The translations under genes and the position numbers were made by a program. From contig CAZHIA010000001.1 of NCBI GenBank assembly GCA_964532425.1, positions 44,889-108,888 of the forward strand: DNA of 64,000 nucleotides, written 5' to 3'. Numbering within the stretch: position 1 is the first letter of the stretch; each line of letters opens with the position of its first letter. This stretch comes from an uncultured Candidatus Saccharibacteria bacterium (GTDB lineage Bacteria; Patescibacteriota; Doudnabacteria; UBA920). Under the pieces are notes generated by a model. That model had not been told where the DNA came from. It made no database searches and was given only the letters and a program-made list of their open reading frames with translations. Below, in pieces: positions 2,531 to 36,300 of this stretch.

Positions 2531-2612
2531 TGTTGAACATTTGACCTTTGACATGTAACATGTGACCTAACTGCAGTCGGTCAATGGTCAAAGGTTACAT
2601 GTCAAATGTTAT
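2531..2612. promoter_or_regulatory. ~80-bp palindromic element with TTGACC/GGTCAA half-sites ending in TGTCAAATGTT; a homologous element lies at 56327-56402
   Basis: AACATTTGACCTTTGAC...GTCAATGGTCA...ATGTCAAATGTT. The 11-mer TGTCAAATGTT recurs at 56391 and 59241. The element sits about 30 bp upstream of the ABC transporter start. Confidence 0.5.
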
Positions 2613-5002: not shown

Positions 5003-5611
5003 GAATTGAAAATGCCTCCTTCGGGTCGGTGTCGAAAGTGATAATACCGAAAAAACAGGAATAAGTCAATTCATATAGTAATCTCTAATATACGAATCAA
5101 GCACCAATCCGCCCTCTGGCGGAGGCGGACGAATGCAGCACACCGTCCTTTATTCCTTAGAACGGCCAATAGTTATTCGTATATTTGCGCTGTATTCGTT
5201 ATATTCGAGATTGCTAATAAAAATCCAGGACACCGCTGTGGTGTCCTGGATGGGAGTTCGTGCACGGCTATAGACAGCCGCGGAACGGGTCGAACCCGTA
5301 ACTGAAGAGTGGTGGGAATGGGGCGAATCGGTGGAACAGACGATCGAATTTAAGTTGAGTCCGGAAGGTCCGGTACTTGGTCTTAAACAGCCTGAAGGTC
5401 AGGCGCAGTCCACGTTGCTCGCCTTTCATACCGCGCTGGAACATGCGATCTCCTCCTACAGTTGGGATATATGGCAGTATATAACGGCTTTTTTCCAAAA
5501 GCAAGGGGTAATCAATAGAAAAATAAAAAGATAGAAAATAGAAAGATTGAGATTGCCATAATCTTTTGATCTTTTATTTTTCTATTTTTCTATTGTTTGC
5601 TATACTACAAA

Positions 5612-5733
5612 TACAACCTAAGCGTTATCGCGAGTCCGGCGAGAGCACTGGCTCTATGACCCGGCGGCAACCCTGAGTAGCCCGGCTATTCGATGGGTGC
5701 CCCATCCAGCCCATTAGTAATGGGAAAGATGAT
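5612..5733 (+). ncRNA. SAM-I (S-box) riboswitch
   Basis: TTATCgcGAG...GGCAACC...GGGTGCCCCATCCAGC...AAAGATGA matches the S-box consensus blocks. Lies directly upstream of metK. Confidence 0.75.
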
Positions 5734-5744
5734 TTGATTTTGCG

Positions 5745-5776
5745 CTCAAACCCTTTCCCGCGAAAGGTTTTTTGTT
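5745..5776 (+). terminator. riboswitch expression-platform terminator
   Basis: CCCTTTC-ccgc-GAAAGG followed by TTTTTTG, abutting the metK start. Confidence 0.6.
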
Positions 5777-5777
5777 T

Positions 5778-6812
5778 ATGTACCAGAGTAAGTTCTATAC
5801 GGCCGAGAATGTGGCCCTCGGGCATCCGGATAAGGTCTGTGATCAGATCTCGGACGCTATTTTAGATGAGATTCTCCGGCAGGATTCAAACGGCCGCGTG
5901 GCCATGGAAGCGTTCGGCAGCCACGGGCTTTTGGTTCTTGGTGGCGAGGTTACGGCTGAGGCTGAGGTTGATTATGAAGCTGTAGCCCGCCGGGTTTATA
6001 GCGATATCGGCTACCATGAGCCGCTGGAGGTGTTAGTTCATATTGCTTGCCAGTCGCCGGATATTGCCCGCGGCGTGGATACGGGCGGCGCTGGTGATCA
6101 GGGAATTATGTACGGCTATGCCACGGACGAGACGCCGGAATACTTGCCGACCGGCGTGGTGCTGGCCAGGCAACTGGCGCAAGGACTGGCGGAACTCGGC
6201 CGCAGCCAGCCGGGGATTGGGCCTGACGGTAAGACGCAAGTAACTATGGAGAACGGCATGGTGTGCCGCGTGCTGGTCAGTTGCCAGCACGGCGAAGGTA
6301 TGGAACTGTCCGAGCTGCGGCAGATGCTCGTCGAGCGAGTAATTGTTCCGGTCTGCGGCAGGTTGCAGGACGGGCAGATCCTGGTCAATCCGACGGGCCG
6401 GTTCGTGCAAGGAGGGTTTGCAGCGGATGCGGGCCTGACCGGCCGCAAAATTATGGTTGATACCTATGGCGGGCTGGCGCCCCATGGCGGCGGCGCATTC
6501 TCCGGCAAGGATCCTTCCAAGGTCGACCGCAGTGCCGCGTACCTGGCGCGCTTAGCCGCCAAACATATGGTATCTGCCGGGCTGGCGCACGAGTGCCTGG
6601 TGTCGGTGGCATATGCCATCGGCCAAGAGCAGCCGCTTATGGTTTCCGCGGTTTCGGAGAGCGGGCAGGATCTTTCGGCGGCAGTGAAGCGGCATTTCGA
6701 TTTCAGGCCGCTGGCAATTATTGAACGGTTAGGCTTGCGCCGGCCAATCTATCGACAAACTGCCTGCTTCGGCCATTTTGGCCGGCCGGGTTTGCCGTGG
6801 GAAGAGTTATAA
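5778..6812 (+). CDS. metK: S-adenosylmethionine synthetase
   Basis: GHPDKVCDQISDA and GGGAFSGKDPSKVDRSAAY motifs. Start taken at ATG 5778; the track calls TTG 5772. Confidence 0.9.
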   Translation: MYQSKFYTAENVALGHPDKVCDQISDAILDEILRQDSNGRVAMEAFGSHGLLVLGGEVTAEAEVDYEAVARRVYSDIGYHEPLEVLVHIACQSPDIARGVDTGGAGDQGIMYGYATDETPEYLPTGVVLARQLAQGLAELGRSQPGIGPDGKTQVTMENGMVCRVLVSCQHGEGMELSELRQMLVERVIVPVCGRLQDGQILVNPTGRFVQGGFAADAGLTGRKIMVDTYGGLAPHGGGAFSGKDPSKVDRSAAYLARLAAKHMVSAGLAHECLVSVAYAIGQEQPLMVSAVSESGQDLSAAVKRHFDFRPLAIIERLGLRRPIYRQTACFGHFGRPGLPWEEL

Positions 6813-9465: not shown

Positions 9466-9759
9466 AACCTGCCTCCTTGTATGAAGGCATTGTAGCAGAA
9501 AACGGCAATGGAGTGCAGGCCGCTGGCCTGCTGATAAATAAAAAGATTCAAAAATAGAAATATAAAAAATTATAAGAACTGTAGATTATGTAGGTAATAT
9601 CTACCCTACAATTTCTTGGATCTTTCTATTGGCAGGGCACGGCCCTGCACTACAAGAACAGGGGTGCATATGAATACCACTGTAGTACAGGCCCGTGGCC
9701 TGCTCCGTGTAGGGGCAGGCAGGAGGCGCCCTCTTCTTAAAGCACCAAAAACAAATCTC

Positions 9760-11755: not shown

Positions 11756-11837
11756 ATCACCGCTGAAGGTGCGCTGATTACGACGCTGAAAGGTCGCTTA
11801 TGTAGGGGCGGCCATTGGCCGCCCTGTCCGTGATTCA

Positions 11838-11865
11838 GTAGGGGACGGTCGCGACCGTCCCGTAC
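11838..11865. repeat. REP-like palindrome (family E): GTAGGGGACGGTCGCGACCGTCCCGTAC. Related copies at 11797-11822, 11937-11965, 21590-21613, 22897-22924, 46565-46590, 50870-50899 and 51115-51144.
   Basis: Near-perfect palindrome with the GTAG head typical of RAYT-mobilised REPs; eight copies in the window. Confidence 0.8.
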
Positions 11866-11983
11866 GGGATTCAGATCATTTTATCCAAATAAGAGCGTAT
11901 CAGAGTTCATTTCACACTGAATGATTGCATATATAGAGGCGGCCAATGGCCGCCCTATCCGTGAACCAGGAACTATAATAACA

Positions 11984-12026
11984 AAAAAACGTCCCGGCTG
12001 CTTGCGCAGTCGGGACGTTGTTGTTT
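11984..12026. terminator. bidirectional terminator
   Basis: AAAAAAA-ACGTCCCGGCTG...CAGTCGGGACGT-TGTTGTTT. Confidence 0.7.
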
Positions 12027-13072: not shown

Positions 13073-13119
13073 TGTGTCATTCCGGAATCCGCCTCTTGCG
13101 GATATCCGGAATCTACACA
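13073..13119. repeat. hairpin repeat (family A): TGTGTCATTCCGGAATCC...GGATATCCGGAATCTACACA. Other copies at 16109-16156 and 24387-24455.
   Basis: Three copies sharing the GTCATTCCGGAATCC arms with variable loops. Confidence 0.75.
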
Positions 13120-13138: not shown

Positions 13139-13801
13139 ATGCCAATCAAAATGTTAGAGAGAATGTTACAACCACGCGAACGGCTCATGAAGTACGGTCC
13201 GGGGCGGCTTTCTGATGCCGAACTTCTCGCAATCATGCTCCGCACCGGGCCCAAAGGGTGCAATGTGGTTGAGCTTTCAAAGAAGCTGCTGAAAAAATAT
13301 CCGGACGCAAAACTGGCCCAAGCCAGCGTCCAGGAATTGTCCGAAGTACACGGCCTTGGCCCAGCCAAGGCCTGCGAGCTGTCTGCCTGTTTTGAACTGG
13401 GCAGGCGGATGCTCAAGGACAAGCAGTCCGTGCTCATTCTTTCCCCGCGCGAGGTGTGGGATCAGATGCAGGATATTCGCAACCACAAGAAGGAACACTT
13501 TGTCGTGTTCTTTTTGGACACCCAGAACCAGGTGGTCAAAAGGGAAGTGGTGAGCATCGGCACGCTGAATGCCAGCCTCATTCATCCGCGCGAGGTTTTC
13601 GAGCCAGCAGTGCGCTTTCTGGCCGCACATGTTATTGTCTCACACAATCATCCGTCAGGAAGTTTGGAGCCCTCGGACGAGGACCTGCGCATCACTAAGC
13701 GTCTTTGTGATGCGGGAAAGCTTTTGGGCATTGAACTGCTCGATCATGTCATTGTCACCGCATCCGGTTATGCAAGCTTCAAGGAGAAAAATCTGTTATG
13801 A
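13139..13801 (+). CDS. radC: RadC-like JAB-domain protein (UPF0758)
   Basis: N-terminal HhH region and JAMM motif region ...HVIVSHNHPSGSLEPSDED. Confidence 0.85.
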   Translation: MPIKMLERMLQPRERLMKYGPGRLSDAELLAIMLRTGPKGCNVVELSKKLLKKYPDAKLAQASVQELSEVHGLGPAKACELSACFELGRRMLKDKQSVLILSPREVWDQMQDIRNHKKEHFVVFFLDTQNQVVKREVVSIGTLNASLIHPREVFEPAVRFLAAHVIVSHNHPSGSLEPSDEDLRITKRLCDAGKLLGIELLDHVIVTASGYASFKEKNLL

Positions 13802-13812
13802 TGGTATAAGAG

Positions 13813-13843
13813 CCTATCCATCCTATCCATCTTATTCATCCTA
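13813..13843. repeat. period-9 tandem array (CCTATCCAT x3-4) directly after the radC stop and upstream of the PIF1-2 start
   Basis: cctatccat cctatccat cttattcat cc... Confidence 0.8.
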
Positions 13844-13865
13844 GAGGCCTTATTCCCTTTATTCC

Positions 13866-15968
13866 ATGTCCGAAGACAATTCTCCTCTTTACACGAAATC
13901 CTATTACGAAGAAGTCCGTAAAATCCACCCCCGCATGGGCAAGAAGTGGACTGCGGACGAAGACCAACAGCTTAAGAATGCCTACCTGCAATTCAAGGCG
14001 CAGCCGTCGGCGAATTTTGACGTGTTCCTGCAGGAACTGGTCGAGCAGTTCGGCAGGGCTTCGGGCGGCATTAAGGCAAGGTTAGCTAAATATTTTGAGG
14101 ACGTCCCGGGTTGGGACTATGGCCGCGATGCGTTCCGGCAGGAACAGCTCAATAAGGAGGCAGAGTCAGCCATTCCCAAAGACGACGAGGAGGTGCTGGT
14201 TCGGGCGTACCGCTTGTATGAAGAATCAAAAAATGAGACGTACATGGCCTTTTTACGGCGCATGTCGGAACGCCTTGGAAATATTGAGGGGAGGCTTATA
14301 ACGCACCGTTTATCGCAATTGGTCGGCGAGGTAAAAAAGTACAATAAGGAAGATGTAGGGGCGGCCAGTGGCCGCCCGCACCCAGGGAGTGATCGCGAAA
14401 AAAATACTCCCGACGTCTCAGATATCGACTTTTCTGGCAACCTTGAAGCAGGCGAGGCCTTGCGCCTTATGGAGCAGACCCGGGAAAATCTGTTTTTGAC
14501 CGGAGAGGCTGGAACCGGGAAATCGACCCTGCTGCAGTTCTTCCGCTATACCACCCAAAAGAACGTGGTGGTGCTCGCTCCGACCGGGGTGGCTGCTTTG
14601 AATGTGGAAGGCCAGACCATTCATTCGTTTTGCGGGTTCGGTCCGGATATTACGGTGCACAAGGTCAAGAAGCTAGGCCCATGGGCGCCCAAGCGCAAGC
14701 TGCTTAATAAGCTCGATGCGATTATTATAGACGAGATCTCCATGGTCCGCGCTGATCTGCTTGATTGCGTGGACAAGTTTTTGCGCATGAACGGGCCGAC
14801 TGGGACGCAAGCCTTTGGTGGCATTCAAATGATTTTCATCGGTGATCTTTATCAACTCCCGCCAGTATCCGCCGAAAGGCCTGTTGGCCAATCAGGCGGA
14901 CCCGCCACAATGTCCCGTTTTGGCGGGGCTTTGGGCGGGGAGAAGGGTTTTTATGGTGATCCTCTCCTGTCCCAATACGCCTCTCCTTATTTTTTTGATG
15001 CCCTTGCATATAAGCAGACGAAGTTCCACCACATCGCCCTCAAGCAAATGTACCGGCAGAAGGACCGGGTGTTCATCGACGTGCTGAATGCGGTGCGCAA
15101 CAATGCAGCCATGCAGGAACATTTGACCGTCTTAAACCAGCGCGCGCAGACTGCGGGTGCCAAGTTCACGTTCGAGAAATTTGCAATTTATTTAACTACT
15201 ACGAACCAACGCGCGCGGCAAGTGAATAATTTTTTCATTGAGCGCTTGAAGGGAGAGCTGAAGACTTTTCAGGGGCGCACTGCCGGAACCTTTGAGGACC
15301 GAGAGCTGCCCACAGACTTGAATTTGCAAATCAAGGTCGGCGCCCAAGTCATGATGCTCAACAACGACCGCAAGAAGCGCTGGGTCAATGGCACTATGGG
15401 GAAGATAGTTGCCATAGGTTTTGGTAATACCGATGTTGAGCAGGCCCGCGGCCTGCCCTCCCGGATGGAGAATGGTAGTGTGGTTTCTTCTCCCCAGGCG
15501 TGGGAAGATGCCCCGCAGGGGCAGAGAGGTCGAACCCTGGAAGCTGAAGATCAATCTCCCGAACTCACCTACGAACCCATCTCTCCATATGACTACCGCC
15601 CGCAATCTTCTGGCATGGTGGTAACCGTGGAATTGGAAACAGGGGAGACCGTAGACGTGACGCCGTTCACCTGGGAGATGCACAAGTTCGTGCTCGACAA
15701 GGAAACGGAGAAAATAGACATTCAGACCACGGGCACGTTCACGCAATACCCGTTCAAGTTGGCTTGGGCCGTGACCATACACAAGGCCCAGGGCAAGACG
15801 TTCGACAAGGTGTATGTGGATCTTTCCACCGGCACCTTCGCGCACGGCCAGCTCTACGTTGCCCTCTCGCGCTGCCGCACTCTGGAAGGTCTCTTCCTCC
15901 GCCGTCCCATCACCCCCGCCGACATCCTCCTCGACCAGCGCATTGTCCAATTTCTGAATTCGTTATAA
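13866..15968 (+). CDS. PIF1-family DNA helicase (paralog 2) with an ~200-aa N-terminal extension containing a Myb/SANT-like motif, plus two internal insertions
   Basis: Core ~65% identical to paralog 1 (GEAGTGKST ... TIHKAQGKTFDKVYVDLSTGTFAHGQLYVALSRCRTLEGL). N-terminus has GKKWTADEDQQLKNAYLQF...GGIKARL. Confidence 0.8.
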   Translation: MSEDNSPLYTKSYYEEVRKIHPRMGKKWTADEDQQLKNAYLQFKAQPSANFDVFLQELVEQFGRASGGIKARLAKYFEDVPGWDYGRDAFRQEQLNKEAESAIPKDDEEVLVRAYRLYEESKNETYMAFLRRMSERLGNIEGRLITHRLSQLVGEVKKYNKEDVGAASGRPHPGSDREKNTPDVSDIDFSGNLEAGEALRLMEQTRENLFLTGEAGTGKSTLLQFFRYTTQKNVVVLAPTGVAALNVEGQTIHSFCGFGPDITVHKVKKLGPWAPKRKLLNKLDAIIIDEISMVRADLLDCVDKFLRMNGPTGTQAFGGIQMIFIGDLYQLPPVSAERPVGQSGGPATMSRFGGALGGEKGFYGDPLLSQYASPYFFDALAYKQTKFHHIALKQMYRQKDRVFIDVLNAVRNNAAMQEHLTVLNQRAQTAGAKFTFEKFAIYLTTTNQRARQVNNFFIERLKGELKTFQGRTAGTFEDRELPTDLNLQIKVGAQVMMLNNDRKKRWVNGTMGKIVAIGFGNTDVEQARGLPSRMENGSVVSSPQAWEDAPQGQRGRTLEAEDQSPELTYEPISPYDYRPQSSGMVVTVELETGETVDVTPFTWEMHKFVLDKETEKIDIQTTGTFTQYPFKLAWAVTIHKAQGKTFDKVYVDLSTGTFAHGQLYVALSRCRTLEGLFLRRPITPADILLDQRIVQFLNSL

Positions 15969-15970
15969 AT

Positions 15971-16033
15971 CCTATCCATCCTATTCATCCTATCCATCTT
16001 ATCAATCCTATCCATCTTATAAATCCCATTTCA
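15971..16033. repeat. period-9 tandem array (7 units: CCTATCCAT, CCTATTCAT ...) directly after the PIF1-2 stop
   Basis: Seven consecutive 9-bp units; this array is the source of the spurious NPIHPIHPIH ORF. Confidence 0.85.
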
Positions 16034-16180
16034 CCCCTTCTTCCCCTTGGCTTCCATTAACCCCCCTTTACCCCCTTAAACCCCTTTTCACCCTTTCTTC
16101 CCTCACTCTGTGTCATTCCGGAATCCGAGTGCAGCCGAGGATGTCCGGAATCCAGTTTATTTCCCCATAAATTCTCTTAT

Positions 16181-16208
16181 TTGACAGGAATTTACCCGGT
16201 GCTATGAT
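16181..16208 (+). promoter_or_regulatory. near-consensus sigma70 promoter
   Basis: TTGACA, 16-nt spacer, TATGAT. Confidence 0.6.
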
Positions 16209-16214
16209 GGAAAA

Positions 16215-16302
16215 AACAACAAACATGCCAGTCGAGTCTCCCGTAAATAAAATAATAACTTAAACCAAAGCTCCAAGCCGCCGTTTTCGGCGGCTTTGTT
16301 TT
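16215..16302 (+). ncRNA. candidate small RNA (~85 nt) defined by a promoter and terminator
   Basis: Consensus promoter at 16181-16208. Terminator GCCGCCG-ttttc-GGCGGC followed by TTTGTTTT at 16277-16302. Contains only a 19-codon ORF with no RBS. Confidence 0.4.
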
Positions 16303-16489
16303 CCGGGCCTGCTCTCCTTCTACCGAAGGTCCAACGTAGCCTCGTGCGAAGTTGGAATAGGAGGAGTGCCCGCCGACTCGTCCGCCGTAGCTTTAGCGAA
16401 GGGGGAAGGCGGGGGAAGTGGTACGGGGTCTGTAGTGCCCCTCTCCCTTTCAAGGGAGAGGTAGGGTGAGGGTATTAATTAAAAATCCT

Positions 16490-16883: not shown

Positions 16884-19718
16884 ATGAGAGTTAGTAAACT
16901 TAATAGGTGTTTATTAGTGTTGGGCTGCTTAGCTCTACTAGGCGGTCAAGTAAGAATAGCGGCGAATGCTACTAGTGCTATTGTAGTCTGTGACCCAGGC
17001 TATAATGCTGGTAACTCTCCTATACAAGGTATTCCTACATATGATTACGGAACGGACGGAATGGTCCGTTTTCATTTTACCTTGGATGGTAATGGCTGGG
17101 CTCCCTCAAATAATTTTGTGGCCGTGTATGGAGAGAATTGTGAGTACCTTTATACAAAAGGTTATACGTACGCAAGTTCAGGTAGTATTCCGCAAGGTGT
17201 AATTCATCTTATGGTGAAAGCGCAAGAAGTAACACCAGGAGGCGGGTGGTATGTGTTCACAGCTTATGACGAGGACACAAACGAACCGGTAGGACTGGGA
17301 GGTATGCCGACCCAAGTAAACGAGCCGTTTGTTAGCTTTGCAATTTTACAGAACCCTAGCTACTACGTGTACAACGGAGCCAAAAGCCCTGCTGTGCCAG
17401 TGAGAGATCCGACACGAATGATTTCTAAGACCCCGGTATTGATTGTGCCAGGGGTGATGGGTACTGAATTAAAGATGGAGGGTGAGTTACTTTGGGTTGA
17501 TCTAGATAGAATGTTGGGTGATGTTGGTGACCAGTTTATGGATAAGTTGCAATTTAAGGAAGATCTTCAACCCGAAAATGAGAGTGTGTCACCAGATCAA
17601 GTAATTGCGCAAAAACCGTTATTTGATTACACGGGCTCTTTGGCTGATGAATTTAAAACCCAAGGGTATACCGAAAATCAGGATCTCTTTACTTTCCCAT
17701 ATGACTGGCGTTACGGGGTAACTGGAGTCGTAGATACTACAACAGGTAAAACAACGGTCGACTTACTGCAGCAAAGAATTGAGGAAATTAGTCAGCAAAC
17801 AGGAAGTTCTCAGGTGGATGTAATCGCACATAGCACTGGTGGCTTATTGGTGAAAAAGTATGTTATGGATCACCCGGATTCTCATCGGATTCGTAAGGCT
17901 GTATTTGTAGGTGTGCCAAACGTCGGCGCTCCCAAAGCCATAAAAACTCTTTTGATGGGGGATGGGTTTGGTATCCCTTGGCTTGCCGACGGAGAAATGC
18001 TAAAACTGTCTCAAAATCTTCCGGTTGTTTATGACCTCATGCCTAGTGCTCAATATTACTCTGTTCATACTAGCCCTATAAACATCCTTTCGGGTAAGGT
18101 TTTTGTTTCCGAGATGAAAAATCTTTCTTATGATGAATCCATTTCTTATTTGACAGAAAAAGGATTGAACATTTCTGCAATAACACAATCGCAGTCATTG
18201 CATTCAAGATCGTTCGATAGTTATGACATGAGGACGGCAGGTGTGGATGTATATAATATTGTCGGGTGTAAATCAGGGACTGTGACGCAAGTGTTGGACT
18301 ACGAACATCAAGACGGATCCCATATTAGATATGACGTGTATGAAGAAGGGACAGGTGATGGAACAGTACCGCTCGAGAGTTCAACTTATTTGCCAGTAAA
18401 CGATGACCATAAATTTTATGCGTTAAAGACAGAGCATGCGAAAATGTTGAGCCAGGATGGTGTTCGCCAGACAATTGTTAATGTTGTGTCCGGAGCCAAT
18501 CTTGCAGTCAGTGATAAAGCTGTTACCTCAGACATTGGAAAGTGTAAGTTGAAGGGGAAGGCTGTGGCTATATATAGTCCAGTTGATATTCAAATTTCCG
18601 ACCAATTTGGTAATAAACTAGGACTCGCGGAGGATGGGAGTATACAAAACACAATTCCCGGTGCGGATTTTGAAATCATGGGTGAACACAAGTATGCATT
18701 TTTGCCCGATGAGGATGGTGAAGTATATTCTTTAAATTTAAAAGGTACCGGGACCGGGCTCTTTACCGTGAAAGTTGATGATATTGATGGTTCGGTGATA
18801 GGCTCAAAAATCTTTGCGAGTCTCACCGTTACCCCTTCGCTAGTGGGTACCTTGTCTTTAACTGGGGACACTAAGATGGATTTGGACACGAATAATGATG
18901 GTTCAGTGGACCAGGAACTAACACCTTCAACACTTTCAAACCCCTCCCAATCCCAAGACTATCTTCCTCCCATCTCCACCTCCACCCTTTCTGGCATTAT
19001 GGGACAGGCGGGGTTTTATAGGAGCGAGGTGGTGGTGGCGCTGAATGCGACGGATACGGTGGTGTCGGGACTTGAGGATCAGACTTCCGGTGTTTTGGAC
19101 GTGCGCTATGCGCTGGACGACCATTCATCCAATCCATCCTATTCTTCCTATGCCAGCCCTATCACTGTTTCCACCGAAGGTCCTCACACCCTCTCGTTCT
19201 ATTCCGTGGACCGGGCGGGGAATAGGGAAGCGGTGCAGACGATTAATTTTACCATCGACAAAACCGCGCCAGAGGTTTCTTTGCAGTTTGACCAGAATGC
19301 AAAGGATCTGGTTTTCAGCGGCATCGACAATTCTCCGGTCTCGGTCAGCGACAAGGACGACATTATTACCGTAACCGATCAGGCCGGCAATGCCACAGTT
19401 ATGAAGCTCAAAGACAAGAACCGCAAGCGCTCGCTGAAGGCTGAAATTAAATCCATTAGCTACAACGGGCAGGTTGCGGATCTTTCTAAGAACAGCATGG
19501 CGTTCTCCTGGGCCTATGACAGAAAGGACAAAGACAAGCTTGTCTTGCTTTCGCAAATCGTGACTGCGAAAAAAGACTACCTCGTCTCAGCCATCTACAA
19601 TGGCAAGTCTACGGTGCTGCTTGGCCGTGACGCTTCGGGCAAAATAAAGAAAACTCTCCCCGGCCTGACTCTCCTCAAAATTGCCACCTCCACCGGCGAC
19701 TTGAATTGGAGTTATTAG
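16884..19718 (+). CDS. secreted LCAT/PGAP1-like alpha/beta hydrolase, fused through an S/T/P linker to a chitobiase-C-like Ig domain and a C-terminal region
   Basis: Signal peptide. PVLIVPGVMGTELK is LCAT-like. Nucleophile elbow VIAHSTGGL. A YYSVDRAGNRE-type beta-sandwich motif. The 5' 2 kb is AT-rich and the 3' 0.8 kb is GC-rich. Confidence 0.65.
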   Translation: MRVSKLNRCLLVLGCLALLGGQVRIAANATSAIVVCDPGYNAGNSPIQGIPTYDYGTDGMVRFHFTLDGNGWAPSNNFVAVYGENCEYLYTKGYTYASSGSIPQGVIHLMVKAQEVTPGGGWYVFTAYDEDTNEPVGLGGMPTQVNEPFVSFAILQNPSYYVYNGAKSPAVPVRDPTRMISKTPVLIVPGVMGTELKMEGELLWVDLDRMLGDVGDQFMDKLQFKEDLQPENESVSPDQVIAQKPLFDYTGSLADEFKTQGYTENQDLFTFPYDWRYGVTGVVDTTTGKTTVDLLQQRIEEISQQTGSSQVDVIAHSTGGLLVKKYVMDHPDSHRIRKAVFVGVPNVGAPKAIKTLLMGDGFGIPWLADGEMLKLSQNLPVVYDLMPSAQYYSVHTSPINILSGKVFVSEMKNLSYDESISYLTEKGLNISAITQSQSLHSRSFDSYDMRTAGVDVYNIVGCKSGTVTQVLDYEHQDGSHIRYDVYEEGTGDGTVPLESSTYLPVNDDHKFYALKTEHAKMLSQDGVRQTIVNVVSGANLAVSDKAVTSDIGKCKLKGKAVAIYSPVDIQISDQFGNKLGLAEDGSIQNTIPGADFEIMGEHKYAFLPDEDGEVYSLNLKGTGTGLFTVKVDDIDGSVIGSKIFASLTVTPSLVGTLSLTGDTKMDLDTNNDGSVDQELTPSTLSNPSQSQDYLPPISTSTLSGIMGQAGFYRSEVVVALNATDTVVSGLEDQTSGVLDVRYALDDHSSNPSYSSYASPITVSTEGPHTLSFYSVDRAGNREAVQTINFTIDKTAPEVSLQFDQNAKDLVFSGIDNSPVSVSDKDDIITVTDQAGNATVMKLKDKNRKRSLKAEIKSISYNGQVADLSKNSMAFSWAYDRKDKDKLVLLSQIVTAKKDYLVSAIYNGKSTVLLGRDASGKIKKTLPGLTLLKIATSTGDLNWSY

Positions 19719-19727
19719 TCTTATACG

Positions 19728-19772
19728 TCCTATTTGTCCTATTAGACCTATCTGCCCTATAGGTCCTATTCA
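19728..19772. repeat. period-9 tandem array (5 units, GTCCTATTn-like) directly after the hydrolase stop
   Basis: tcctatttg tcctattag acctatctg ccctatagg tcctattca. Confidence 0.75.
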
Positions 19773-19812
19773 AAATGCGCTATAATTAAAGCAAATTATA
19801 TTTAAACTTTTT

Positions 19813-20463
19813 ATGCAAGAAAAAGGATTCAGCGGGGCAGAGGCAAGCCTTGAGACCGAGTCTAAATTGTTTGGGGTTATAACGGAAGACCAAGCACGGG
19901 CTATTTGCGGCTCGCCGGAAAAGTTCGAGCAGGTAAAAGATGACTTTGTATCTCATGGCCAGCATGAATACTTGCTCAAAGGCGGTGGCAAGCTGGTCTT
20001 TCATCCCCGGGAGAACGAATGGACCATGAGTGGTTATGGAGACCGCAGTGATATTAAAGACGTCTTAGAAGCGGTGGAAGCGGGCTATACCGGTTTTATA
20101 GACGGCGAGCATGGGACTATGGAATATATAGACGGTGCGGACATTTCCAAAGCCCCTGATCGGGAAAAAATTTACAGCCTGGCTAGTCGCGTGGGGGTGG
20201 AGATCTCACTGTTCAACCGCGCCTTCCTGCAGGTCATAGAAGTTCGTCCGCATTTGAAGTTTAAAATTTATTCCAGCGGGTTTGGTGGGGAGCATAGCAT
20301 TTTGGAAGTTCAAAACGCGATCAAGGCAGGTAAGCCACTCCTGGCCGAAGATGCCGAAGAGCGGGTCAAGGACAGCATTGCCAGAATGGACAGTTTCCAA
20401 AGAATGTATGGCGAACCACTTTACGACCCCAACTCCATCGACAACCGTCCTAAGAAGAAATAA
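19813..20463 (+). CDS. hypothetical protein (216 aa)
   Basis: Clean ORF; no recognisable domain. Confidence 0.5.
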   Translation: MQEKGFSGAEASLETESKLFGVITEDQARAICGSPEKFEQVKDDFVSHGQHEYLLKGGGKLVFHPRENEWTMSGYGDRSDIKDVLEAVEAGYTGFIDGEHGTMEYIDGADISKAPDREKIYSLASRVGVEISLFNRAFLQVIEVRPHLKFKIYSSGFGGEHSILEVQNAIKAGKPLLAEDAEERVKDSIARMDSFQRMYGEPLYDPNSIDNRPKKK

Positions 20464-20654
20464 CCTCCCTGTTTTAAATGTAATGCAGGCTCTTGGCCTG
20501 CTTGCAGGTGCAGTACTCTCCTCCTGGGATAGGAGGAGTACCCGCCACAGGCGGGGGAGGTGGTATAGAGAAGTTGCGATGTAAATGTAGTGCAGTCCCT
20601 TGGCCTGCCTGCTTGTAGGGAACGGTTTGAAACCGTTCCCAACGGATCCAAGAT

Positions 20655-21489: not shown

Positions 21490-21644
21490 GATTTGAGCTG
21501 TTTCCCTCTTCTCCTTCCAGGAGAAGATGTCCGCCTCCGGCGGACAGATGAGGTGATTATGTAGTGCAAGCCATTGACCTGCTGTTTCCTGTAGGGGCGG
21601 ATAGTATCCGCCGAAATCAAATAGTGTCATCCGGAATAAAAATA

Positions 21645-22835: not shown

Positions 22836-23200
22836 GTGTAGTGCAGGCCCTCTTGTCCGCCGAAGCCTTGGCGAAGGTGGATGACCTGCTCAGCCCCTGT
22901 AGGGGCGGATACCATCCGCCCGGGATTAAAGCAGACGAGGTAGAATGGTAAGTTTAAGCTGTCAGTAAATGTAGTGCAGGCCCTCGGCCTGCTGGGAGAT
23001 GGCGTTTCTCCCTCTCCTTATTCGCAGATCTGCCATAGTTTTAACGTAGGAGGACATAGGAGAGGATGAAGGTGAGGTTATTGACACAGAGAGTACTGAA
23101 GGTAGAGGTTGCAGTCACCCCCTCTCCTTGCATAGGAGAGGGTAGGGGTGAGGTTATTTGGTGTATGTAGTGCAGGCCCTTGGCCTGCAAGGTGCAGGAG
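22836..23200. repeat. cluster of hairpin repeats: family D (TGTAGTGCAGGCCCTTGGCCTGC; copies at 22838, 22968 and 23165), family E (22897) and CTCTCC/GGAGAG palindromes (23108-23160)
   Basis: Several dispersed families sit together here. D copies elsewhere: 9632, 9681, 20478, 20585, 21560, 46459 and 46517. Confidence 0.8.
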
Positions 23201-23272
23201 TTTAAATCCAATTCGCCATCATCTTCAAAACAAGTTACAATTAAGACAAGAAATTCTTAATTTGAAACACAT

Positions 23273-23536
23273 ATGGACCAAGTTTATAACAATTGCCAGA
23301 GCTGCGGCATGCCGCTCAAACGCGATCCTCAAAACGGGGGAACGAATGCGGATGGCAGCAAATCGACCATGTACTGCAGCTATTGTTATGTGAATGGCCA
23401 GTTTATGAATCCCACCATGACCGCCCAAGAGATGCAGGTCTTCTGCAAAGGCAAGTTAAAAGAAATGGGGTACCCTGGTTTTGTTGCCTCATTCCTCACT
23501 TGGAACATCCCCCGCCTCGCCCGGTGGAAGAAGTAA
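23273..23536 (+). CDS. zinc-ribbon domain protein (87 aa)
   Basis: CQSCGMPL...CSYCYVNG, i.e. two CxxC pairs. Confidence 0.55.
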   Translation: MDQVYNNCQSCGMPLKRDPQNGGTNADGSKSTMYCSYCYVNGQFMNPTMTAQEMQVFCKGKLKEMGYPGFVASFLTWNIPRLARWKK

Positions 23537-24561: not shown

Positions 24562-27507
24562 ATGAGAATAACAGACTGCCACGCTAAATATTTTGCTTAC
24601 GAGTTGACTAAGCGGTGTTCGTCTGATAGTTTAGAAAAATTATCTTCTACTTTATCAAACGCGCAAGTCGATCTAAATCCGCACCAAATTGAAGCGGCTC
24701 TTTTTGCGTTCCGCTCACCATTATCAAGAGGTGCAATTTTAGCCGACGAAGTGGGCTTAGGCAAGACCATTGAAGCCGGTCTGGTGTTGTCCCAAAAATG
24801 GGCGGAGCGTAAACGTAATCTACTGCTAATAGTACCCTCAAGTTTGCGCAAACAGTGGAATGCGGAATTACAGGAGAAGTTTTTTTTGCCCTCGACAATT
24901 TTAGAAACCAAAACATTTAATCAGTATATCAAAGATGGAAACCTAAATCCGTTTATCCAAGAAGACAAAATAATAATTTGTTCTTATCACTTTGCTCGTT
25001 CCAAGGCGCCTTATATTAAACAGACTAAATGGGACCTGGTAGTAATTGATGAAGCTCATAGGCTACGCAATGTCTATAAGACCAGCAATAAAATCGCTAA
25101 AGAGATTAAAACTACACTGGCTGATTTTCCAAAAATCCTCTTAACGGCAACCCCACTACAAAATTCCCTTCTCGAACTTTATGGTCTTGTTAGTATTATC
25201 GATGACCATGTGTTTGGTGATTTGAAAAGCTTTAAAGCCAACTACGCAAGAGTTTCCCGGCAGCAAGATATCTACGAAAGCGAGGTCGGCTTAGTAGAAC
25301 CAAAGCAGGAGATGTTTTCAGACTTGCGGGACCGACTAAAAACTATCTGCATCAGAACGCTTAGGCGGCAGGTACTGGAATATATCAAATATACCAAGCG
25401 TATCCCTTTAACCCAGGACTACGTTCCGACTGAACAGGAAATTGAGTTATATAACGGCATGTCTGCGTATTTACAAAGACCCAGACTTTTTGCCCTACCT
25501 TCCAGCCAGCGCCAACTCATTACTCTTATTTTACGCAAATTACTTGCTTCTTCGTCTTTTGCCATTGCTAGCACACTCAATGGCCTGGTATATAAATTAT
25601 CTAAACTGATTGAAGAAGCCGAGAAGCAGAAGGCTTCAGCTCAAGATGCTGATATTGCTGGAATTGACCAAAACTTTGAAAACTTCGAAGATGTCTCTGA
25701 TGAGTGGATCGATGATGAAGAAGAGGAAGAAACCGGGGCTGATAAGAAGAGTGTTATTTATACCGAAGAAGAGATCGCTTTAATGAAGGAAGAAAAAGCT
25801 GAACTGGAAAAATATCGGGAATTGGCAAAAAAAATCTGGACCAATTCCAAAGGGGATGCTCTGCTGATTGCTCTGCAAAAAGGCTTCGAGATGACCGAAG
25901 ATCTTGGAGCCAAGAAGAAGGCCATCATTTTTACAGAATCGACAATAACCCAAAATTACCTGTTAAACTTGCTTTCTGAAAATGGTTACAAAGATAAAAT
26001 TGTACTCTTTAATGGCTCCAATAATGATGACAAGTCAAAGCAGGTTTATGCCGACTGGATCAAAGCCAATAAGGACACGGATAAAATAACCGGCTCTAAG
26101 ACGGCTGATATCCGCGCTGCGCTGGTAGAGTATTTCCGTGATGATGCGGAGATTATGATAGCAACTGAAGCTGCCGCTGAAGGTGTTAACCTACAATTCT
26201 GCTCCCTGCTTATAAATTATGATTTGCCATGGAATCCTCAAAGGATTGAACAGCGCATTGGTCGCTGTCATCGTTATGGACAAAAGCACGACGTGGTGGT
26301 TATTAACTTCGTAAACCGTAAAAATGCCGCTGATCAGAGAGTTTACGAACTATTGGACCAAAAGTTTAGCCTATTCAAAGGTGTGTTTGGTGCAAGCGAC
26401 GAAGTACTTGGCAGTATTGAATCCGGGGTAGATTTTGAAAAGAGAATCGCTGATATTTACCAGACTTGCCGCACTGAAGAAGAGATTAATACAGCATTCG
26501 ACAACCTGCAGAAGGATATGGATGAAAGCATCCAGGACAGCCTACGGGAAACCAGGCAAAAATTATTAGAAAACTTCGATACCGAAGTACACGAAAAGCT
26601 AAAAGTTAATCTAAAGGAAACTCAGGCCTGTCTTGATACCTTTGAACACTGGCTTTGGGACATTACCAGATATTATCTCAAGGAAAATGCGGATTTCTCC
26701 GAGCATGAGTACTCATTTACCTTAAAAAATAATCCTTTCCCCAAGGAGTCTATTGACGCTGGTCCTTACAGGATTGGTAAGAATATTGAAGATGCTCACA
26801 TATACCGTCCTGGTCACCCGTTGGCACAAAGGATATTAAACCAAGTTAAATTAAAACCTATCGAGGAAGCAGAGGTTATATTTGATTATTCCAACAATCC
26901 AACCATCGTTTCAGTATTGAAACCACTGGTAGGTAAAAGCGGAGTGATGAAAATTTCTAACTATACAGTCGAAGCTTTTGAGGCCGAGGATAATATTATT
27001 GCCTCTGCTATCGATGAATCTGGAGAAGCTATTAACCCCGAGGTTGTGAAAAAACTTTTTTCTTTGTCGGCAGAACATAAGAAGTCAGCATTAGTACCGC
27101 CGGATGTTAAAACTCACCTTGAAAAAATTGAGCAGGAAACGGTTGCTGTAACATCCACTAATATTGCCGAACGCAATAGCACTTTTTTTGACAATGAAGT
27201 CGATAAACTTGAAAAGTGGGCGGACGACGTTAAAAAATCTTTAGAACTGGATCTAAAAAAACTGGATATTGAGATTAAAGCGTCCAAAACAAACGCAAAA
27301 AAAATCGTAAACTTGGAAGATAAGCTAAAAACACAGCGAGAAATTAAAGAAATGGAGAAAAAAAGGAACGAAATGCGAAAAAAGCTTTATGATGCTCAGG
27401 ATGAAGTGGAAGAAAAAAAAGAAGAACTTATAAATAAAGTCGAGGCACAATTGCACCAGAGATCGCATTTAGAACCACTATTTACGATTTACTGGAGAGT
27501 GGTTTAA
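24562..27507 (+). CDS. SNF2-family helicase (SNF2_N plus HELICc) with a C-terminal coiled-coil extension; first gene of the low-GC island operon
   Basis: LADEVGLGKTIEAG (motif I), DEAHRLRN (motif II), and ...GVNLQFCSLLINYDLPWNPQRIEQRIGRCHRYGQKHDVVVINFV (motifs V and VI). The C-terminus has heptad-like KE-rich repeats. Confidence 0.85.
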   Translation: MRITDCHAKYFAYELTKRCSSDSLEKLSSTLSNAQVDLNPHQIEAALFAFRSPLSRGAILADEVGLGKTIEAGLVLSQKWAERKRNLLLIVPSSLRKQWNAELQEKFFLPSTILETKTFNQYIKDGNLNPFIQEDKIIICSYHFARSKAPYIKQTKWDLVVIDEAHRLRNVYKTSNKIAKEIKTTLADFPKILLTATPLQNSLLELYGLVSIIDDHVFGDLKSFKANYARVSRQQDIYESEVGLVEPKQEMFSDLRDRLKTICIRTLRRQVLEYIKYTKRIPLTQDYVPTEQEIELYNGMSAYLQRPRLFALPSSQRQLITLILRKLLASSSFAIASTLNGLVYKLSKLIEEAEKQKASAQDADIAGIDQNFENFEDVSDEWIDDEEEEETGADKKSVIYTEEEIALMKEEKAELEKYRELAKKIWTNSKGDALLIALQKGFEMTEDLGAKKKAIIFTESTITQNYLLNLLSENGYKDKIVLFNGSNNDDKSKQVYADWIKANKDTDKITGSKTADIRAALVEYFRDDAEIMIATEAAAEGVNLQFCSLLINYDLPWNPQRIEQRIGRCHRYGQKHDVVVINFVNRKNAADQRVYELLDQKFSLFKGVFGASDEVLGSIESGVDFEKRIADIYQTCRTEEEINTAFDNLQKDMDESIQDSLRETRQKLLENFDTEVHEKLKVNLKETQACLDTFEHWLWDITRYYLKENADFSEHEYSFTLKNNPFPKESIDAGPYRIGKNIEDAHIYRPGHPLAQRILNQVKLKPIEEAEVIFDYSNNPTIVSVLKPLVGKSGVMKISNYTVEAFEAEDNIIASAIDESGEAINPEVVKKLFSLSAEHKKSALVPPDVKTHLEKIEQETVAVTSTNIAERNSTFFDNEVDKLEKWADDVKKSLELDLKKLDIEIKASKTNAKKIVNLEDKLKTQREIKEMEKKRNEMRKKLYDAQDEVEEKKEELINKVEAQLHQRSHLEPLFTIYWRVV

Positions 27508-27516
27508 GCAAGGTTT

Positions 27517-36204: not shown

Positions 36205-36300
36205 AGTTAGATCATTTGAATTACGATTCCCCGGAGTGCTTATTCGCACGAATAAGCACTCCGGGAAGAATACAACAAAAATATTAAGCGGAATAAAAGT

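What the first reader, a model, noticed from the sequence alone, without database searches (positions are those of the whole stretch)
13813..13843. Period-9 CCTAT tandem arrays placed immediately after stop codons at three loci
Arrays of 9-bp units with a CCTAT core occur at 13813-13843 (3-4 units, after radC), 15971-16033 (7 units, after PIF1-2) and 19728-19772 (5 units, after the LCAT-like hydrolase). Each starts within 10 bp of a + strand stop codon.

They are neither hairpins nor repeat-spacer arrays.

A 9-bp periodicity and this fixed position suggest arrayed protein-binding sites (iteron-like) or a non-canonical 3'-end element.
Basis: seen in the sequence. Interest (0 to 1): 0.55.

Follow-up and report, generated by a model that had tools for sequence, protein, structure and literature searches.

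The report
Nine-base repeat arrays abutting stop codons
Three short runs of a 9-base repeat with a CCTAT core really do sit directly after three genes in this candidate-phyla-radiation bacterium, but they look like a young, lineage-specific kind of intergenic repeat rather than replication iterons or a proven new signal.

Summary
The three period-9 C[CT]TAT arrays are real: shuffles give 0 matches, and two independent assemblies reproduce arrays 2 and 3 base for base. All lie on the coding strand in co-directional gene spacers.

New here: each array is in 9-nt register with a GTTAT that spans the last codon and the stop of the upstream gene. Only 4 of 70 genes in the window end that way, and 3 of them carry an array (p = 7e-5).

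The arrays do not fold and are G-poor. They are absent from the orthologous radC-PIF1 spacers of the nearest relatives (59-71% aa identity).

They are one of at least six short-period (7-9 bp) repeat families filling this genome's spacers; repeat coverage is 2.7% intergenic against 0.12% coding.

Similar CCTAT nonamer arrays occur in many phyla, mostly between genes, with no fixed orientation and no associated gene family. A palindromic version, (CCTATAGGW)n, is an abundant hairpin element near gene 3' ends in soil metagenomes.

Best reading (confidence 0.45): a nonamer variant of STRR-type intergenic tandem repeats, amplified by slippage from the gene-end seed. Rivals are a Rho-loading or 3'-end RNA tract and an array of protein-binding sites. 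Iteron membership is rejected.

The parts
13795..13865 (+). Array 1. The in-phase seed GTTAT (13795-13799) overlaps the radC stop TGA (13799-13801). Three good units (CCTATCCAT, CCTATCCAT, CTTATTCAT) occupy 13813-13839. Three degenerate in-phase units then run to the PIF1-2 ATG at 13866.
15962..16033 (+). Array 2. The seed unit GTTATAAAT overlaps the PIF1-2 stop TAA (15966-15968). Six C[CT]TAT units with an 18-bp super-period follow, then CCCAT. The array contains no G at all.
   Evidence: identical in Logan contig L459
16034..16105 (+). Second period-9, C-rich and G-poor tract (CCCCTTCTT ... CCCCCCTTT ACCCCCTTA ...), contiguous with and in phase with array 2. Its complement carries a G-quadruplex motif at 16071-16102.
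19711..19773 (+). Array 3. The seed unit GTTATTAGT contains the stop TAG of the LCAT-like gene (19716-19718). Six units follow: CTTATACGT, CCTATTTGT, CCTATTAGA, CCTATCTGC, CCTATAGGT, CCTATTCAA. The core is conserved, the spacer is variable, and G is at unit position 8 in 5 of 6 units.
   Evidence: identical in L459 and L460
13139..13801 (+). radC (RadC JAB domain plus UPF0758_N). This is the gene upstream of array 1. It ends ...CTG TTA TGA.
13866..15968 (+). PIF1-family helicase of 700 aa, flanked by arrays 1 and 2. No Shine-Dalgarno sequence precedes its ATG. The radC-PIF1 gene pair is conserved in relatives.
16884..19718 (+). LCAT-like alpha/beta hydrolase of 944 aa in a low-GC (about 44%) block. 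This is the gene upstream of array 3. It ends ...AGT TAT TAG.
19813..20463 (+). Hypothetical 216-aa gene downstream of array 3. A TATAAT hexamer lies between the array and its ATG, there is no matching -35, and there is no Shine-Dalgarno sequence.
   Evidence: the promoter reading is taken from the sequence only
13801..13809 (+). TGGTATAAG, an extended -10-like sequence overlapping the end of radC. If it is used, array 1 would be the 5' leader of the PIF1-2 mRNA. This is an inference, not a tested feature.
   Evidence: read; not reported by the consensus scan, which requires a -35

Best explanation
The arrays are a nonamer variant of the short, dispersed intergenic tandem repeats known from cyanobacteria as STRR sequences, and echoed by the intergenic tandem repeats of Borg elements.

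**Proposed origin (inferred).** Each array arose locally and recently by slipped-strand or template-switch amplification. The seed was the xTTAT that closes the upstream gene (GTTAT plus stop). The array then grew downstream into the only DNA free to vary, the co-directional spacer. A 9-nt unit keeps the reading frame where the array overlaps a gene end.

**Relationships between the arrays.**
- Arrays 1 and 2 share a 16-mer three times and are evolutionarily young.
- Array 3 is older, or of the GWCCTAT subtype.

**What the arrays do (inferred).** They are transcribed with the flanking genes as a G-poor, structure-free, pyrimidine-rich spacer. Any effect is generic: it keeps the SD-less starts of PIF1-2 and of the 216-aa gene unstructured, and exposes naked RNA after the stop. 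It does not depend on a dedicated sequence-specific partner.

**Shown versus inferred.**
- Shown: the anatomy, the register with the stop codon, the lack of structure, the lineage specificity, and the genome-wide style of repeat-filled spacers.
- Inferred: the slippage origin, co-transcription, and the absence of a specific binder.
For: **Register with the gene end.**
- All three arrays are in 9-nt phase with a GTTAT that spans the last codon and the stop.
- Only 4 of 70 genes end this way, and 3 of them carry arrays (p = 7e-5).
- The Borg tandem-repeat paper (PMC9879509) describes intergenic repeats that start within gene ends and are flanked by partial repeats.

**The arrays look young.**
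- Arrays 1 and 2 show uniformly low divergence among units, with no difference between core and spacer positions (p = 0.46).
- ATCCTATCCATCTTAT occurs three times across the two arrays.

**The arrays are not conserved.** Relatives keep radC-PIF1 synteny but have no array in either spacer.

**Repeat-filled spacers are the style of this genome.**
- Short-period repeats cover 2.7% of intergenic bases against 0.12% of coding bases.
- Other families are (AATTTCA)n, (ATAGAAAA)n, (TTGACCT)n, (AAATCCT)n and (CCCCCTTTA)n.
- Two of these elements begin 1 nt after a stop, as TAR|GAATTTCAAA.
- Relatives carry other heptamer arrays between co-directional genes.

**Nothing points to a dedicated partner.**
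- The 125 genes flanking 70 similar arrays in other genomes hit 210 Pfam families, none in more than 3 genes. Orientation relative to the genes is mixed.
- Permuted-unit control patterns are at least as frequent in viral contigs: 15, 39 and 78 hits against 9 for the real unit.

**No structure.** The arrays do not fold.

**The STRR description matches.** STRRs are 7-bp units between genes, often hairpin-forming, of unknown function, possibly acting in transcript stability or translational coupling (PMC2670836).
Against: - Array 3 keeps CCTAT almost perfectly (1 deviation in 30 cells) while its 4-nt spacers are nearly random (11 in 24; p = 2e-4). That looks like constraint on a motif rather than neutral decay. 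The core was used to find the array, which inflates this contrast.
- The same core-plus-G8 pattern (CCTAT W N G W) recurs in hundreds of metagenome elements.
- Three independent slippage events converging on CCTAT from a GTTAT seed is not expected. It needs gene conversion or template switching between loci, or selection.
- No copy-number variation was seen between the window and two other assemblies. These may come from the same community.
- Slippage itself was not observed.
Confidence: 0.45

Rival explanations
1. RNA-level 3'-end element. The transcribed arrays are Rho-loading (rut-like) tracts. They are C-rich, G-poor and unstructured, they are exposed as soon as the ribosome leaves at the stop codon, and they offer one YC dinucleotide patch per 9 nt to the six Rho subunits. 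Each array has six or seven units, about one hexamer's worth.
For: - Array 2 plus its C-rich continuation is 142 nt with 42% C and 2% G, has an MFE of -0.3 kcal/mol and carries 53 YC dinucleotides.
- It is the only intergenic stretch in the window with G<=2 and C>=18 per 60 nt on the + strand.
- The 60 nt after PIF1-2, radC and the LCAT-like gene rank 1st, 3rd and 6th of 70 genes for C-minus-G skew.
- The position immediately after the stop fits Rho biology. That fit, and the footprint of about 57 nt per hexamer, are from my own knowledge and were not tested here.
Against: - Rho recognition does not explain the conserved TAT of the core.
- Array 3 is 11% G.
- Array 1 sits in a 64-nt spacer inside a conserved gene pair, where termination would silence PIF1-2.
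- Canonical intrinsic terminators are common in this genome.
- In other genomes the same arrays lie more often in the opposite, purine-rich orientation next to a stop: about 18 against 8.
- Whether this organism has rho could not be checked, and no paper on Rho in this radiation was found.
Confidence: 0.2
2. Arrayed DNA-binding sites, in the manner of an operator or activator array. A small sequence-specific protein binds CCTAT cooperatively at 9-bp spacing. Ribbon-helix-helix repressors do this on contiguous 7-bp heptads (omega) or 8-bp metboxes (MetJ). The protein would control PIF1-2 and the 216-aa gene, whose promoters lack a -35.
For: - Array 3 shows a conserved 5-bp core with variable 4-bp spacers.
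- Arrays 1 and 3 lie directly upstream of SD-less genes. Array 3 ends 5 bp before a TATAAT that has no -35.
- The three arrays cluster within 6 kb around DNA-maintenance genes.
- The comparison with omega and MetJ is from my own knowledge.
Against: - No candidate binder is encoded nearby.
- Array 2 is about 500 bp from the next + strand gene, with hairpins and a separate promoter-terminator unit in between.
- The arrays are absent from the orthologous spacers of relatives.
- At least five other array families with other units occupy equivalent positions. Each would need its own protein.
- No gene family is associated with similar arrays elsewhere.
Confidence: 0.15
3. Decayed or one-armed relatives of a mobile, REP-like hairpin element. 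The palindromic nonamer element (CCTATAGGW)n spreads to gene 3' ends, where it acts as an mRNA-end hairpin. The window's arrays would be degenerate copies (array 3) or non-palindromic offshoots (arrays 1 and 2).
For: - The consensus is GTTAT AGGW CCTAT WNGW CCTAT AGGA CCTAT, with the unforced positions 71-87% conserved.
- This element folds into a 12-bp hairpin (-16.1 kcal/mol, z = -4.9).
- Of 112 elements, 87 are intergenic. Twenty lie in convergent spacers against 7 in divergent ones. The median distance to a stop is 22-32 nt, against 54-58 nt to a start.
- Array 3 fits the W N G W pattern, and shares an 18-mer (CGTCCTATTTGTCCTATT) with a Saccharibacteria array in L154.
Against: - Arrays 1 and 2 contain no G and cannot pair.
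- Array 3 folds no better than shuffles (z = -0.6).
- No transposase or RAYT-type gene is in the window.
- In the metagenome family the GTTAT overlaps a stop in about 1 of 46 cases, unlike the window.
- The GTTAT was forced by the search pattern.
Confidence: 0.12
4. Coding or read-through sequence. A 9-nt period equals three codons, so the arrays would encode tripeptide repeats added to the upstream protein by stop-codon read-through or by a reassigned stop.
For: - After the stops of radC and PIF1-2 the array is open in frame and would read LSILSILFIL... and ILSILFILSILSILSIL* (read).
Against: - The frame relative to the core differs in array 3, which would read SYTSYLSY*, so there is no common product.
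- The three genes use three different stop codons.
- The C-termini of RadC and PIF1-2 match homologues in length (NLL*; FLNSL* against FMNSLR*).
- The public protein record for PIF1-2 ends at the same stop (P0001, 700 aa).
Confidence: 0.02

Closest known systems
STRR (short tandemly repeated repetitive) sequences of heterocystous cyanobacteria
   Same: Both are short units repeated head to tail. Both occur as dispersed families with the same unit at several intergenic loci, often between co-directional genes. In both the function is unknown, with proposals of transcript stability or translational coupling (PMC2670836). The window also holds genuine heptamer-arm hairpins of this style at 47068-47165 and 52907-53001.
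   Different: STRRs have 7-bp units and usually form hairpins, and they are defined in cyanobacteria. The arrays here have 9-bp units, only one arm and no structure, and they come from a candidate-phyla-radiation genome. Only three loci are seen in 64 kb.
Intergenic tandem repeats of Borg extrachromosomal elements (PMC9879509)
   Same: Both are arrays that begin within or at the end of an ORF and are flanked by partial repeats. Both are on the coding strand with biased composition, evolve fast and are absent from relatives. Units divisible by three are tolerated at ORFs.
   Different: Borg repeats are perfect, A-rich and unique to each locus. The arrays here are imperfect and pyrimidine-rich, and three loci share one core.
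REP/BIME-type palindromic elements, including the (CCTATAGGW)n nonamer hairpin element found here in soil metagenomes
   Same: Both are dispersed intergenic elements and prefer gene 3' ends. The CCTAT core and 9-nt period are the same. Array 3 fits the family's W N G W spacer pattern.
   Different: Those elements are palindromic and fold stably. The window's arrays do not fold.
Plasmid and phage iterons
   Same: Both are direct repeats in tandem that could, in principle, bind a protein cooperatively.
   Different: Iterons are about 17-22 bp, usually phased at about 22 bp, and sit in an origin next to a rep gene with AT-rich DNA and DnaA boxes. None of that is present here.
Rho utilisation (rut) sites
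   Same: Both are C-rich, G-poor, unstructured RNA directly downstream of a stop codon. Array 2 plus its C-rich tract is an extreme example.
   Different: rut sites have no fixed repeat or TAT core. Presence of Rho, and termination itself, were not tested.
Contiguous short-repeat operators of ribbon-helix-helix repressors (omega heptads, MetJ metboxes)
   Same: Both are contiguous direct repeats of 7-9 bp upstream of genes, with a conserved core in each unit.
   Different: No cognate protein was identified, and one array is far from any promoter. The comparison rests on my own knowledge.

Membership tests
Iterons (replication-origin repeats) | Located in a replication origin next to a gene for the initiator (Rep) that binds them | tested here: not met
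   The flanking genes are radC, a PIF1 helicase, an LCAT-like hydrolase and hypothetical genes in a chromosomal housekeeping context. No Rep-like family is present. There is no match to plasmids or phages.
Iterons (replication-origin repeats) | Units of about 17-22 bp, typically phased about two helical turns apart | tested here: not met
   The unit and the period are 9 bp.
STRR sequences | Tandem repeats of a short unit at several intergenic loci of one genome | tested here: met
   Three loci share the C[CT]TAT unit, and all are intergenic. Repeat coverage is 2.7% intergenic against 0.12% coding.
STRR sequences | Heptanucleotide unit | tested here: not met
   The period is 9. Heptamer arrays do exist elsewhere in the window.
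STRR sequences | Cyanobacterial host and high copy number across the genome | tested here: not met
   The nearest homologues are Patescibacteria / Ca. Doudnabacteria. Only 64 kb of the genome could be read, so the genome-wide copy number is unknown.
REP-like palindromic elements, including (CCTATAGGW)n | Self-complementary sequence folding into a stable hairpin | tested here: not met
   Fold z-scores are -0.25 to -1.1. Array 3 gives -7.4 kcal/mol at z = -0.6, against -16.1 kcal/mol at z = -4.9 for the metagenome consensus.
REP-like palindromic elements, including (CCTATAGGW)n | Unit pattern CCTAT-W-N-G-W | tested here: inconclusive
   Array 3 has G at unit position 8 in 5 of 6 units. Arrays 1 and 2 have none.
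Rho utilisation site | About 70-80 nt of C-rich, G-poor, unstructured RNA downstream of a stop codon | tested here: inconclusive
   The feature is met by array 2 plus its C-rich tract. It is only weakly met by array 1 (6% G over 53 nt) and array 3 (11% G).
Rho utilisation site | The organism encodes Rho, and transcripts end downstream of the site in a Rho-dependent way | not testable with these tools
   The rest of the MAG could not be fetched. No transcript data are available.
CRISPR or other repeat-spacer arrays | Repeats of 20 bp or more separated by unique spacers of similar length | tested here: not met
   The 9-bp units are contiguous, with 4 variable bases in each.
Borg-type tandem repeats | Perfect units, unique to each locus | tested here: not met
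   The units are imperfect, and the core is shared by three loci.
Borg-type tandem repeats | Array begins in or at the end of an ORF and is flanked by partial repeats | tested here: met
   In-phase GTTAT units overlap all three stop codons, and degenerate units lie at the 3' ends of the arrays. The description is in PMC9879509.

The most novel reading that the evidence does not exclude
CCTAT nonamer arrays are recognition arrays for an as yet unknown sequence-specific factor, acting on DNA or on RNA. On this reading the arrays in this genome are one-armed and G-free, and in soil Acidobacteria they take the form of palindromic 32-nt hairpins. The factor would mark gene 3' ends in register with the stop codon across distant phyla. 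This would be a new class of 3'-end or gene-boundary signal, not a by-product of slippage.
Probability: 0.12. Interest if true: 0.7.

Novelty: new variant of a known kind. Interest (0 to 1): 0.35.

Why it matters
Intergenic DNA of candidate-phyla-radiation bacteria is hardly studied. This window shows spacers built largely from short-period repeats and REP-like hairpins.

The three nonamer arrays are locked in register to the stop codon of the upstream gene. If that register reflects function, such as 3'-end formation, Rho loading or protein binding, it would be a compact and easily testable gene-boundary signal. If it reflects origin, meaning slippage seeded at xTTAT-stop, it gives a clear example of how spacers are created and remodelled in streamlined genomes.

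The by-product may be of more general use. This is an abundant 32-nt (CCTATAGGW)n hairpin element near gene 3' ends in soil metagenomes. It has no Rfam family, and none of its sequences was found in the searchable literature.

Tried and rejected
**Ideas considered and rejected**
- **DnaA-box cluster.** CTATCCATC matches TTATCCACA at only 6 of 9 positions and lacks the conserved CCACA part. Array 3 and related arrays lack even that. This is rejected from the sequence, on my own knowledge of the consensus.
- **PIF1-2 as a mobile cassette bounded by arrays 1 and 2.** The radC-PIF1 pair is conserved in L332-L338.
- **Stop-codon read-through extension.** The frames are inconsistent and the C-termini are native.
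- **Promoter inside the arrays.** No sigma-70-type match was found in the arrays on the + strand.
- **Known RNA family.** Rfam finds only a SAM riboswitch in the window and only a tRNA in 20 related loci.
- **A universal, specially enriched motif.** Three permuted-unit control patterns gave 15, 39 and 78 hits in viral contigs, against 9 for the real unit. The real hits are less often inside long open frames.
- **Association with a gene family or mobile-element gene.** None was found among 125 flanking ORFs.

**Searches that led nowhere**
- **Phage or plasmid origin.** No megablast match.
- **Literature.** No paper holds the array sequences. Nothing was found on Rho in this radiation.
- **Fetching more of the source genome or strain variants.** The genome is not among the species representatives. 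Most exact-protein look-ups failed. The two Logan contigs that were found are identical to the window, so nothing could be learned about copy-number variation.

**Other**
- **G-quadruplex link to PIF1.** The G4 motifs inside the PIF1 genes coincide with a G-rich stretch that I read as glycine (P-loop) codons, an inference. Only the motif at 16071-16102 is intergenic.

Full report

Yes. Reading the three loci, Tandem Repeats Finder, a chain search and the repeat finder all recover period-9 arrays with a C[CT]TAT core. They lie on the + strand at 13813-13843, 15971-16033 and 19720-19772. The pattern CYTAT(N4) x4 matches six times, all within arrays 2 and 3, and never in 100 dinucleotide-preserving shuffles. 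No such chain lies on the minus strand.

The only other occurrence is a two-unit stretch at 19138 inside the LCAT-like ORF. There it encodes the motif ...NPSYSSYASPI... and is a coding coincidence.

Pfam finds RadC, two PIF1-family helicases and an LCAT-like hydrolase.

Two Logan assemblies from other sequencing runs are 100% identical to the window over 8,987 and 2,855 bp, arrays 2 and 3 included. The arrays are therefore not assembly artefacts. The same result means no copy-number variation was seen.

**2. Anatomy, refined**

When the sequence is laid out in 9-nt register, array 1 does not stop at 13843. Three degenerate units (CCTAGAGGC, CTTATTCCC, TTTATTCCA) continue in phase up to the ATG of PIF1-2 at 13866. 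Array 2 runs on, in phase, into a second period-9 C-rich tract up to about 16105. Array 3 begins at 19720.

The most informative new fact concerns the upstream side. In all three cases a GTTAT lies in register with the array and spans the last sense codon and the stop:
- radC: G TTA TGA
- PIF1-2: G TTA TAA
- LCAT-like gene: GT TAT TAG

Of 70 predicted genes in the window, only four end with GTTAT over the stop. Three of these carry an array, and the fourth is metK (Fisher p = 7.3e-5). The C-termini are native. RadC ends NLL*, as in relatives, and PIF1-2 ends FLNSL*, against FMNSLR* in a homologue.

Composition on the coding strand is pyrimidine-rich and G-poor. G is 0% in array 2, 6% in array 1 and 11% in array 3.

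Neither strand folds better than shuffled sequence. The 142 nt of array 2 plus the C-rich tract have an MFE of -0.3 kcal/mol. There is no inverted partner arm.

Units of arrays 1 and 2 differ little, and evenly across positions. Array 3 keeps the pentamer (1 deviation in 30 cells) while its 4-nt spacers are almost random (11 in 24; p = 2e-4). This contrast is inflated because the core was the search criterion.

**3. Organism and context**

The closest homologues of PIF1-2 are from Patescibacteria / Candidatus Doudnabacteria, at 60% identity or less. The identical protein sits on one NCBI contig of 334,850 bp.

The window is ordinary chromosome. It carries metK behind a SAM riboswitch, an ABC transporter, a P-type ATPase and a GTPase, plus low-GC islands. 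There is no match to phages or plasmids.

Canonical intrinsic terminators and sigma-70-like promoters are common in its spacers.

The spacers are also crowded with repeats:
- GTAG-type REP hairpins;
- 'gtcattccggaatcc' hairpins;
- at least five other short-period array families: (AATTTCA)n, (ATAGAAAA)n, (TTGACCT)n, (AAATCCT)n upstream of PIF1-1, and (CCCCCTTTA)n.

Two (AATTTCA)n hairpin elements start exactly 1 nt after a stop (TAG|G..., TAA|G...) and fill the whole spacer. Short-period repeats cover 2.7% of intergenic bases against 0.12% of coding bases. Adjacency to stop codons is therefore in part a general property of how spacers are built in this genome.

**4. Orthologous loci**

The radC-PIF1 pair is conserved in the nearest available relatives (L332-L338). 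RadC is 62-71% identical and PIF1 is 59% identical.

Their radC-PIF1 spacers (73-78 bp) and the spacers after PIF1 contain no CCTAT array. They do carry other heptamer arrays between co-directional genes, for example L332 2191-2230.

The caveat is divergence: nothing closer than 60% exists in the searched collections.

**5. The same repeat elsewhere**

*Genome scan.* A scan of 185,579 species genomes with TCCTATYCATCYTATNNATCC gave 70 loci. They come from Verrucomicrobiota, Planctomycetota, Chloroflexota, Bacteroidota, Saccharibacteria, Peregrinibacteria, Chlamydiota, archaea and others. Eight genomes were hit twice.
- About three quarters of the arrays are intergenic (52 of 71).
- They lie in all four gene configurations and in both orientations relative to the nearest stop.
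- Six of 71 have an inverted partner array.
- The 125 flanking ORFs hit 210 Pfam families, none in more than three ORFs. No gene is associated with the arrays.

*Controls.* Three control patterns with the unit's columns permuted gave 15, 39 and 78 hits in viral contigs, against 9 for the real pattern. The motif is therefore not specially enriched. The control hits are mostly inside long ORFs, whereas the real unit is more often non-coding.

It revealed a distinct family.
- The positions that were left free are strongly conserved. The consensus is GTTAT AGGW CCTAT WNGW CCTAT AGGA CCTAT. This is a palindromic nonamer, (CCTATAGGW)n, usually four units long.
- It folds into a 12-bp hairpin (-16.1 kcal/mol, z = -4.9).
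- Of 112 non-redundant copies, 87 are intergenic.
- Twenty lie in convergent spacers and 7 in divergent ones.
- The median distance to a stop is 22-32 nt, against 54-58 nt to a start.
- One neighbouring gene's closest named relatives are Pyrinomonadaceae of the Acidobacteriota.
- Rfam has no family for it, and no paper holds its sequence.

Array 3 fits this family's W N G W spacer pattern, and it shares an 18-mer with a Saccharibacteria array in L154. It does not fold, however. Arrays 1 and 2 have no G and cannot belong structurally.

**6. What it most likely is**

I commit to the following reading at 0.45. The arrays are a nonamer variant of STRR-type intergenic tandem repeats. They were generated locally and recently by slipped-strand or template-switch amplification, seeded on the xTTAT that closes the upstream gene.
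- They are tolerated because they lie in co-directional spacers and because a 9-nt unit preserves frame at the gene end.
- They are transcribed as a G-poor, structure-free spacer.
- Shown: the anatomy, the register, the lack of structure, the lineage specificity and the repeat-rich spacer style.
- Inferred: the mechanism of origin, co-transcription, and the lack of a dedicated partner.

The two closest descriptions in the literature are:
- cyanobacterial STRRs (7-bp units between genes, often hairpin-forming, function unknown; PMC2670836);

**7. Rivals**

*(a) A rut-like RNA tract, 0.2.*
- For: array 2 plus the C-rich tract is the most extreme C>G stretch in the window. The 3' flanks of the three genes rank 1st, 3rd and 6th of 70 for C-minus-G skew.
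- Against: the conserved TAT is unexplained. Array 1 lies inside a conserved gene pair. The orientation is opposite in most other genomes. Presence of Rho could not be checked.

*(b) An operator-like array of binding sites, 0.15.*
- For: the core and spacer pattern of array 3, and the position upstream of two SD-less, -35-less genes.
- Against: there is no candidate binder, array 2 is far from any gene start, and many other array families occupy equivalent places.

*(c) Decayed relatives of the mobile hairpin element, 0.12.*

*(d) Coding or read-through sequence, 0.02.*

Iterons are rejected on period, context and the absence of a Rep gene.

**8. Novelty and score**

The weight of evidence still places the arrays within a known, poorly understood class of dispersed short tandem repeats. 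They are a new variant of that class: nonamer, one-armed, in a candidate-phyla-radiation genome, and seeded at the gene end.

Interest is 0.35. The most novel reading still open is a conserved factor that reads CCTAT every 9 nt at gene boundaries across phyla. I put that at about 0.12.

Noticed in passing
L339-L458 (metagenome loci), e.g. L340 926-957, L412 12767-12798, L401: An abundant 32-nt palindromic nonamer element, GTTAT AGGW CCTAT WNGW CCTAT AGGA CCTAT. It folds into a 12-bp hairpin and lies mostly 0-30 nt from stop codons; 20 copies are in convergent spacers and 7 in divergent ones. At least one locus is from a Pyrinomonadaceae-like acidobacterium. It has no Rfam family and no literature hit. 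Some copies sit between heptamer-array arms, (GGTCAGT)n ... (ACTGACC)n.
   Followed up: partly
L130, L132, L138, L139, L150, L172, L174, L177, L180, L182: Verrucomicrobial genomes (Haloferula, Akkermansia, Luteolibacter and others) share a defined element, (TCCTATCCA)2-6 followed by TCCTGGTCC. It recurs twice in some genomes. Its meaning is unknown.
   Followed up: no
window 47068-47165 and 52907-53001 (also 44740-45060): STRR-like hairpin elements whose arms are (AATTTCA)n heptamer arrays. Both start exactly 1 nt after a stop codon (TAA|G, TAG|G followed by AATTTCAAA) and fill the whole spacer up to the next start codon.
   Followed up: partly
window 5515-5594, 9550-9580, 38819-38879: (ATAGAAAA)n octamer arrays. 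One forms a long hairpin just upstream of the SAM riboswitch and metK. Another, one-armed, runs right up to the ATG at 38880.
   Followed up: no
window 2535-2571 and 56330-56361; L332 2191-2230: Heptamer arrays of TTGACCT / TTAACCT / TGTAACA type lie between co-directional genes. A relative has (TAACTTG/TCACTTG)n in the same kind of position.
   Followed up: no
window 13073-13113 and 16109-16152; 16353-16423 and 20525-20565: Pairs of near-identical REP-like hairpin modules bracket gene blocks. TGTGTCATTCCGGAATCCG...GGATNTCCGGAATC flanks radC-PIF1-2. TGGRATAGGAGGAGTRCCCGCC...AGGCGGGGGARGTGGTA flanks the low-GC block that holds the LCAT-like gene. GTAG-type REP hairpins are frequent elsewhere (11790-12000, 21560-21620, 22840-23300, 46470-46545).
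   Followed up: partly
window 16181-16296: A near-consensus promoter (TTGACA-16-TATGAT with TG), a 15-codon ORF (MMEKTTNMPVESPVNK) and a strong intrinsic terminator (16275-16296). This may be a small protein or a small RNA unit. It lies between array 2 and the LCAT block.
   Followed up: no
window 16071-16102 (minus strand): The complement of the C-rich nonamer tract is a canonical G-quadruplex motif (GGGAAGAAAGGGTGAAAAGGGGTTTAAGGGGG). It lies about 100 bp downstream of a PIF1-family helicase gene. It is the only intergenic G4 motif of the seven in the window.
   Followed up: partly
window 35430-35453, 36236-36259, 36565-36588 (related copy near 32830): Perfect 24-bp palindromes, GTGCTTATTCGCACGAATAAGCAC, lie directly after successive small genes in the low-GC island. 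They are probably terminator or REP-like hairpins.
   Followed up: no
window 24562-32520: A low-GC (38-43%) island encodes an SNF2-family helicase, a 219-aa unknown protein, an N6/N4 DNA methylase and a type III restriction Res-like helicase. It is probably a horizontally acquired restriction or defence cluster.
   Followed up: no
window 5622-5735: A SAM riboswitch (Rfam RF00162, 55.5 bits) lies upstream of metK (5772-6812). metK is the only gene ending in GTTAT-stop that has no CCTAT array.
   Followed up: no
L124 about 5275-5380; L154 6920-7110 (Saccharibacteria MAGs): Other candidate-phyla-radiation genomes carry composite tracts very like the window's. L124 has a TCCTAT nonamer array followed by a CCCCTTT-type C-rich tract. 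L154 has an array of about 20 units that mixes GTCCTATTN and ATCCTATTC units and shares an 18-mer with array 3.
   Followed up: partly
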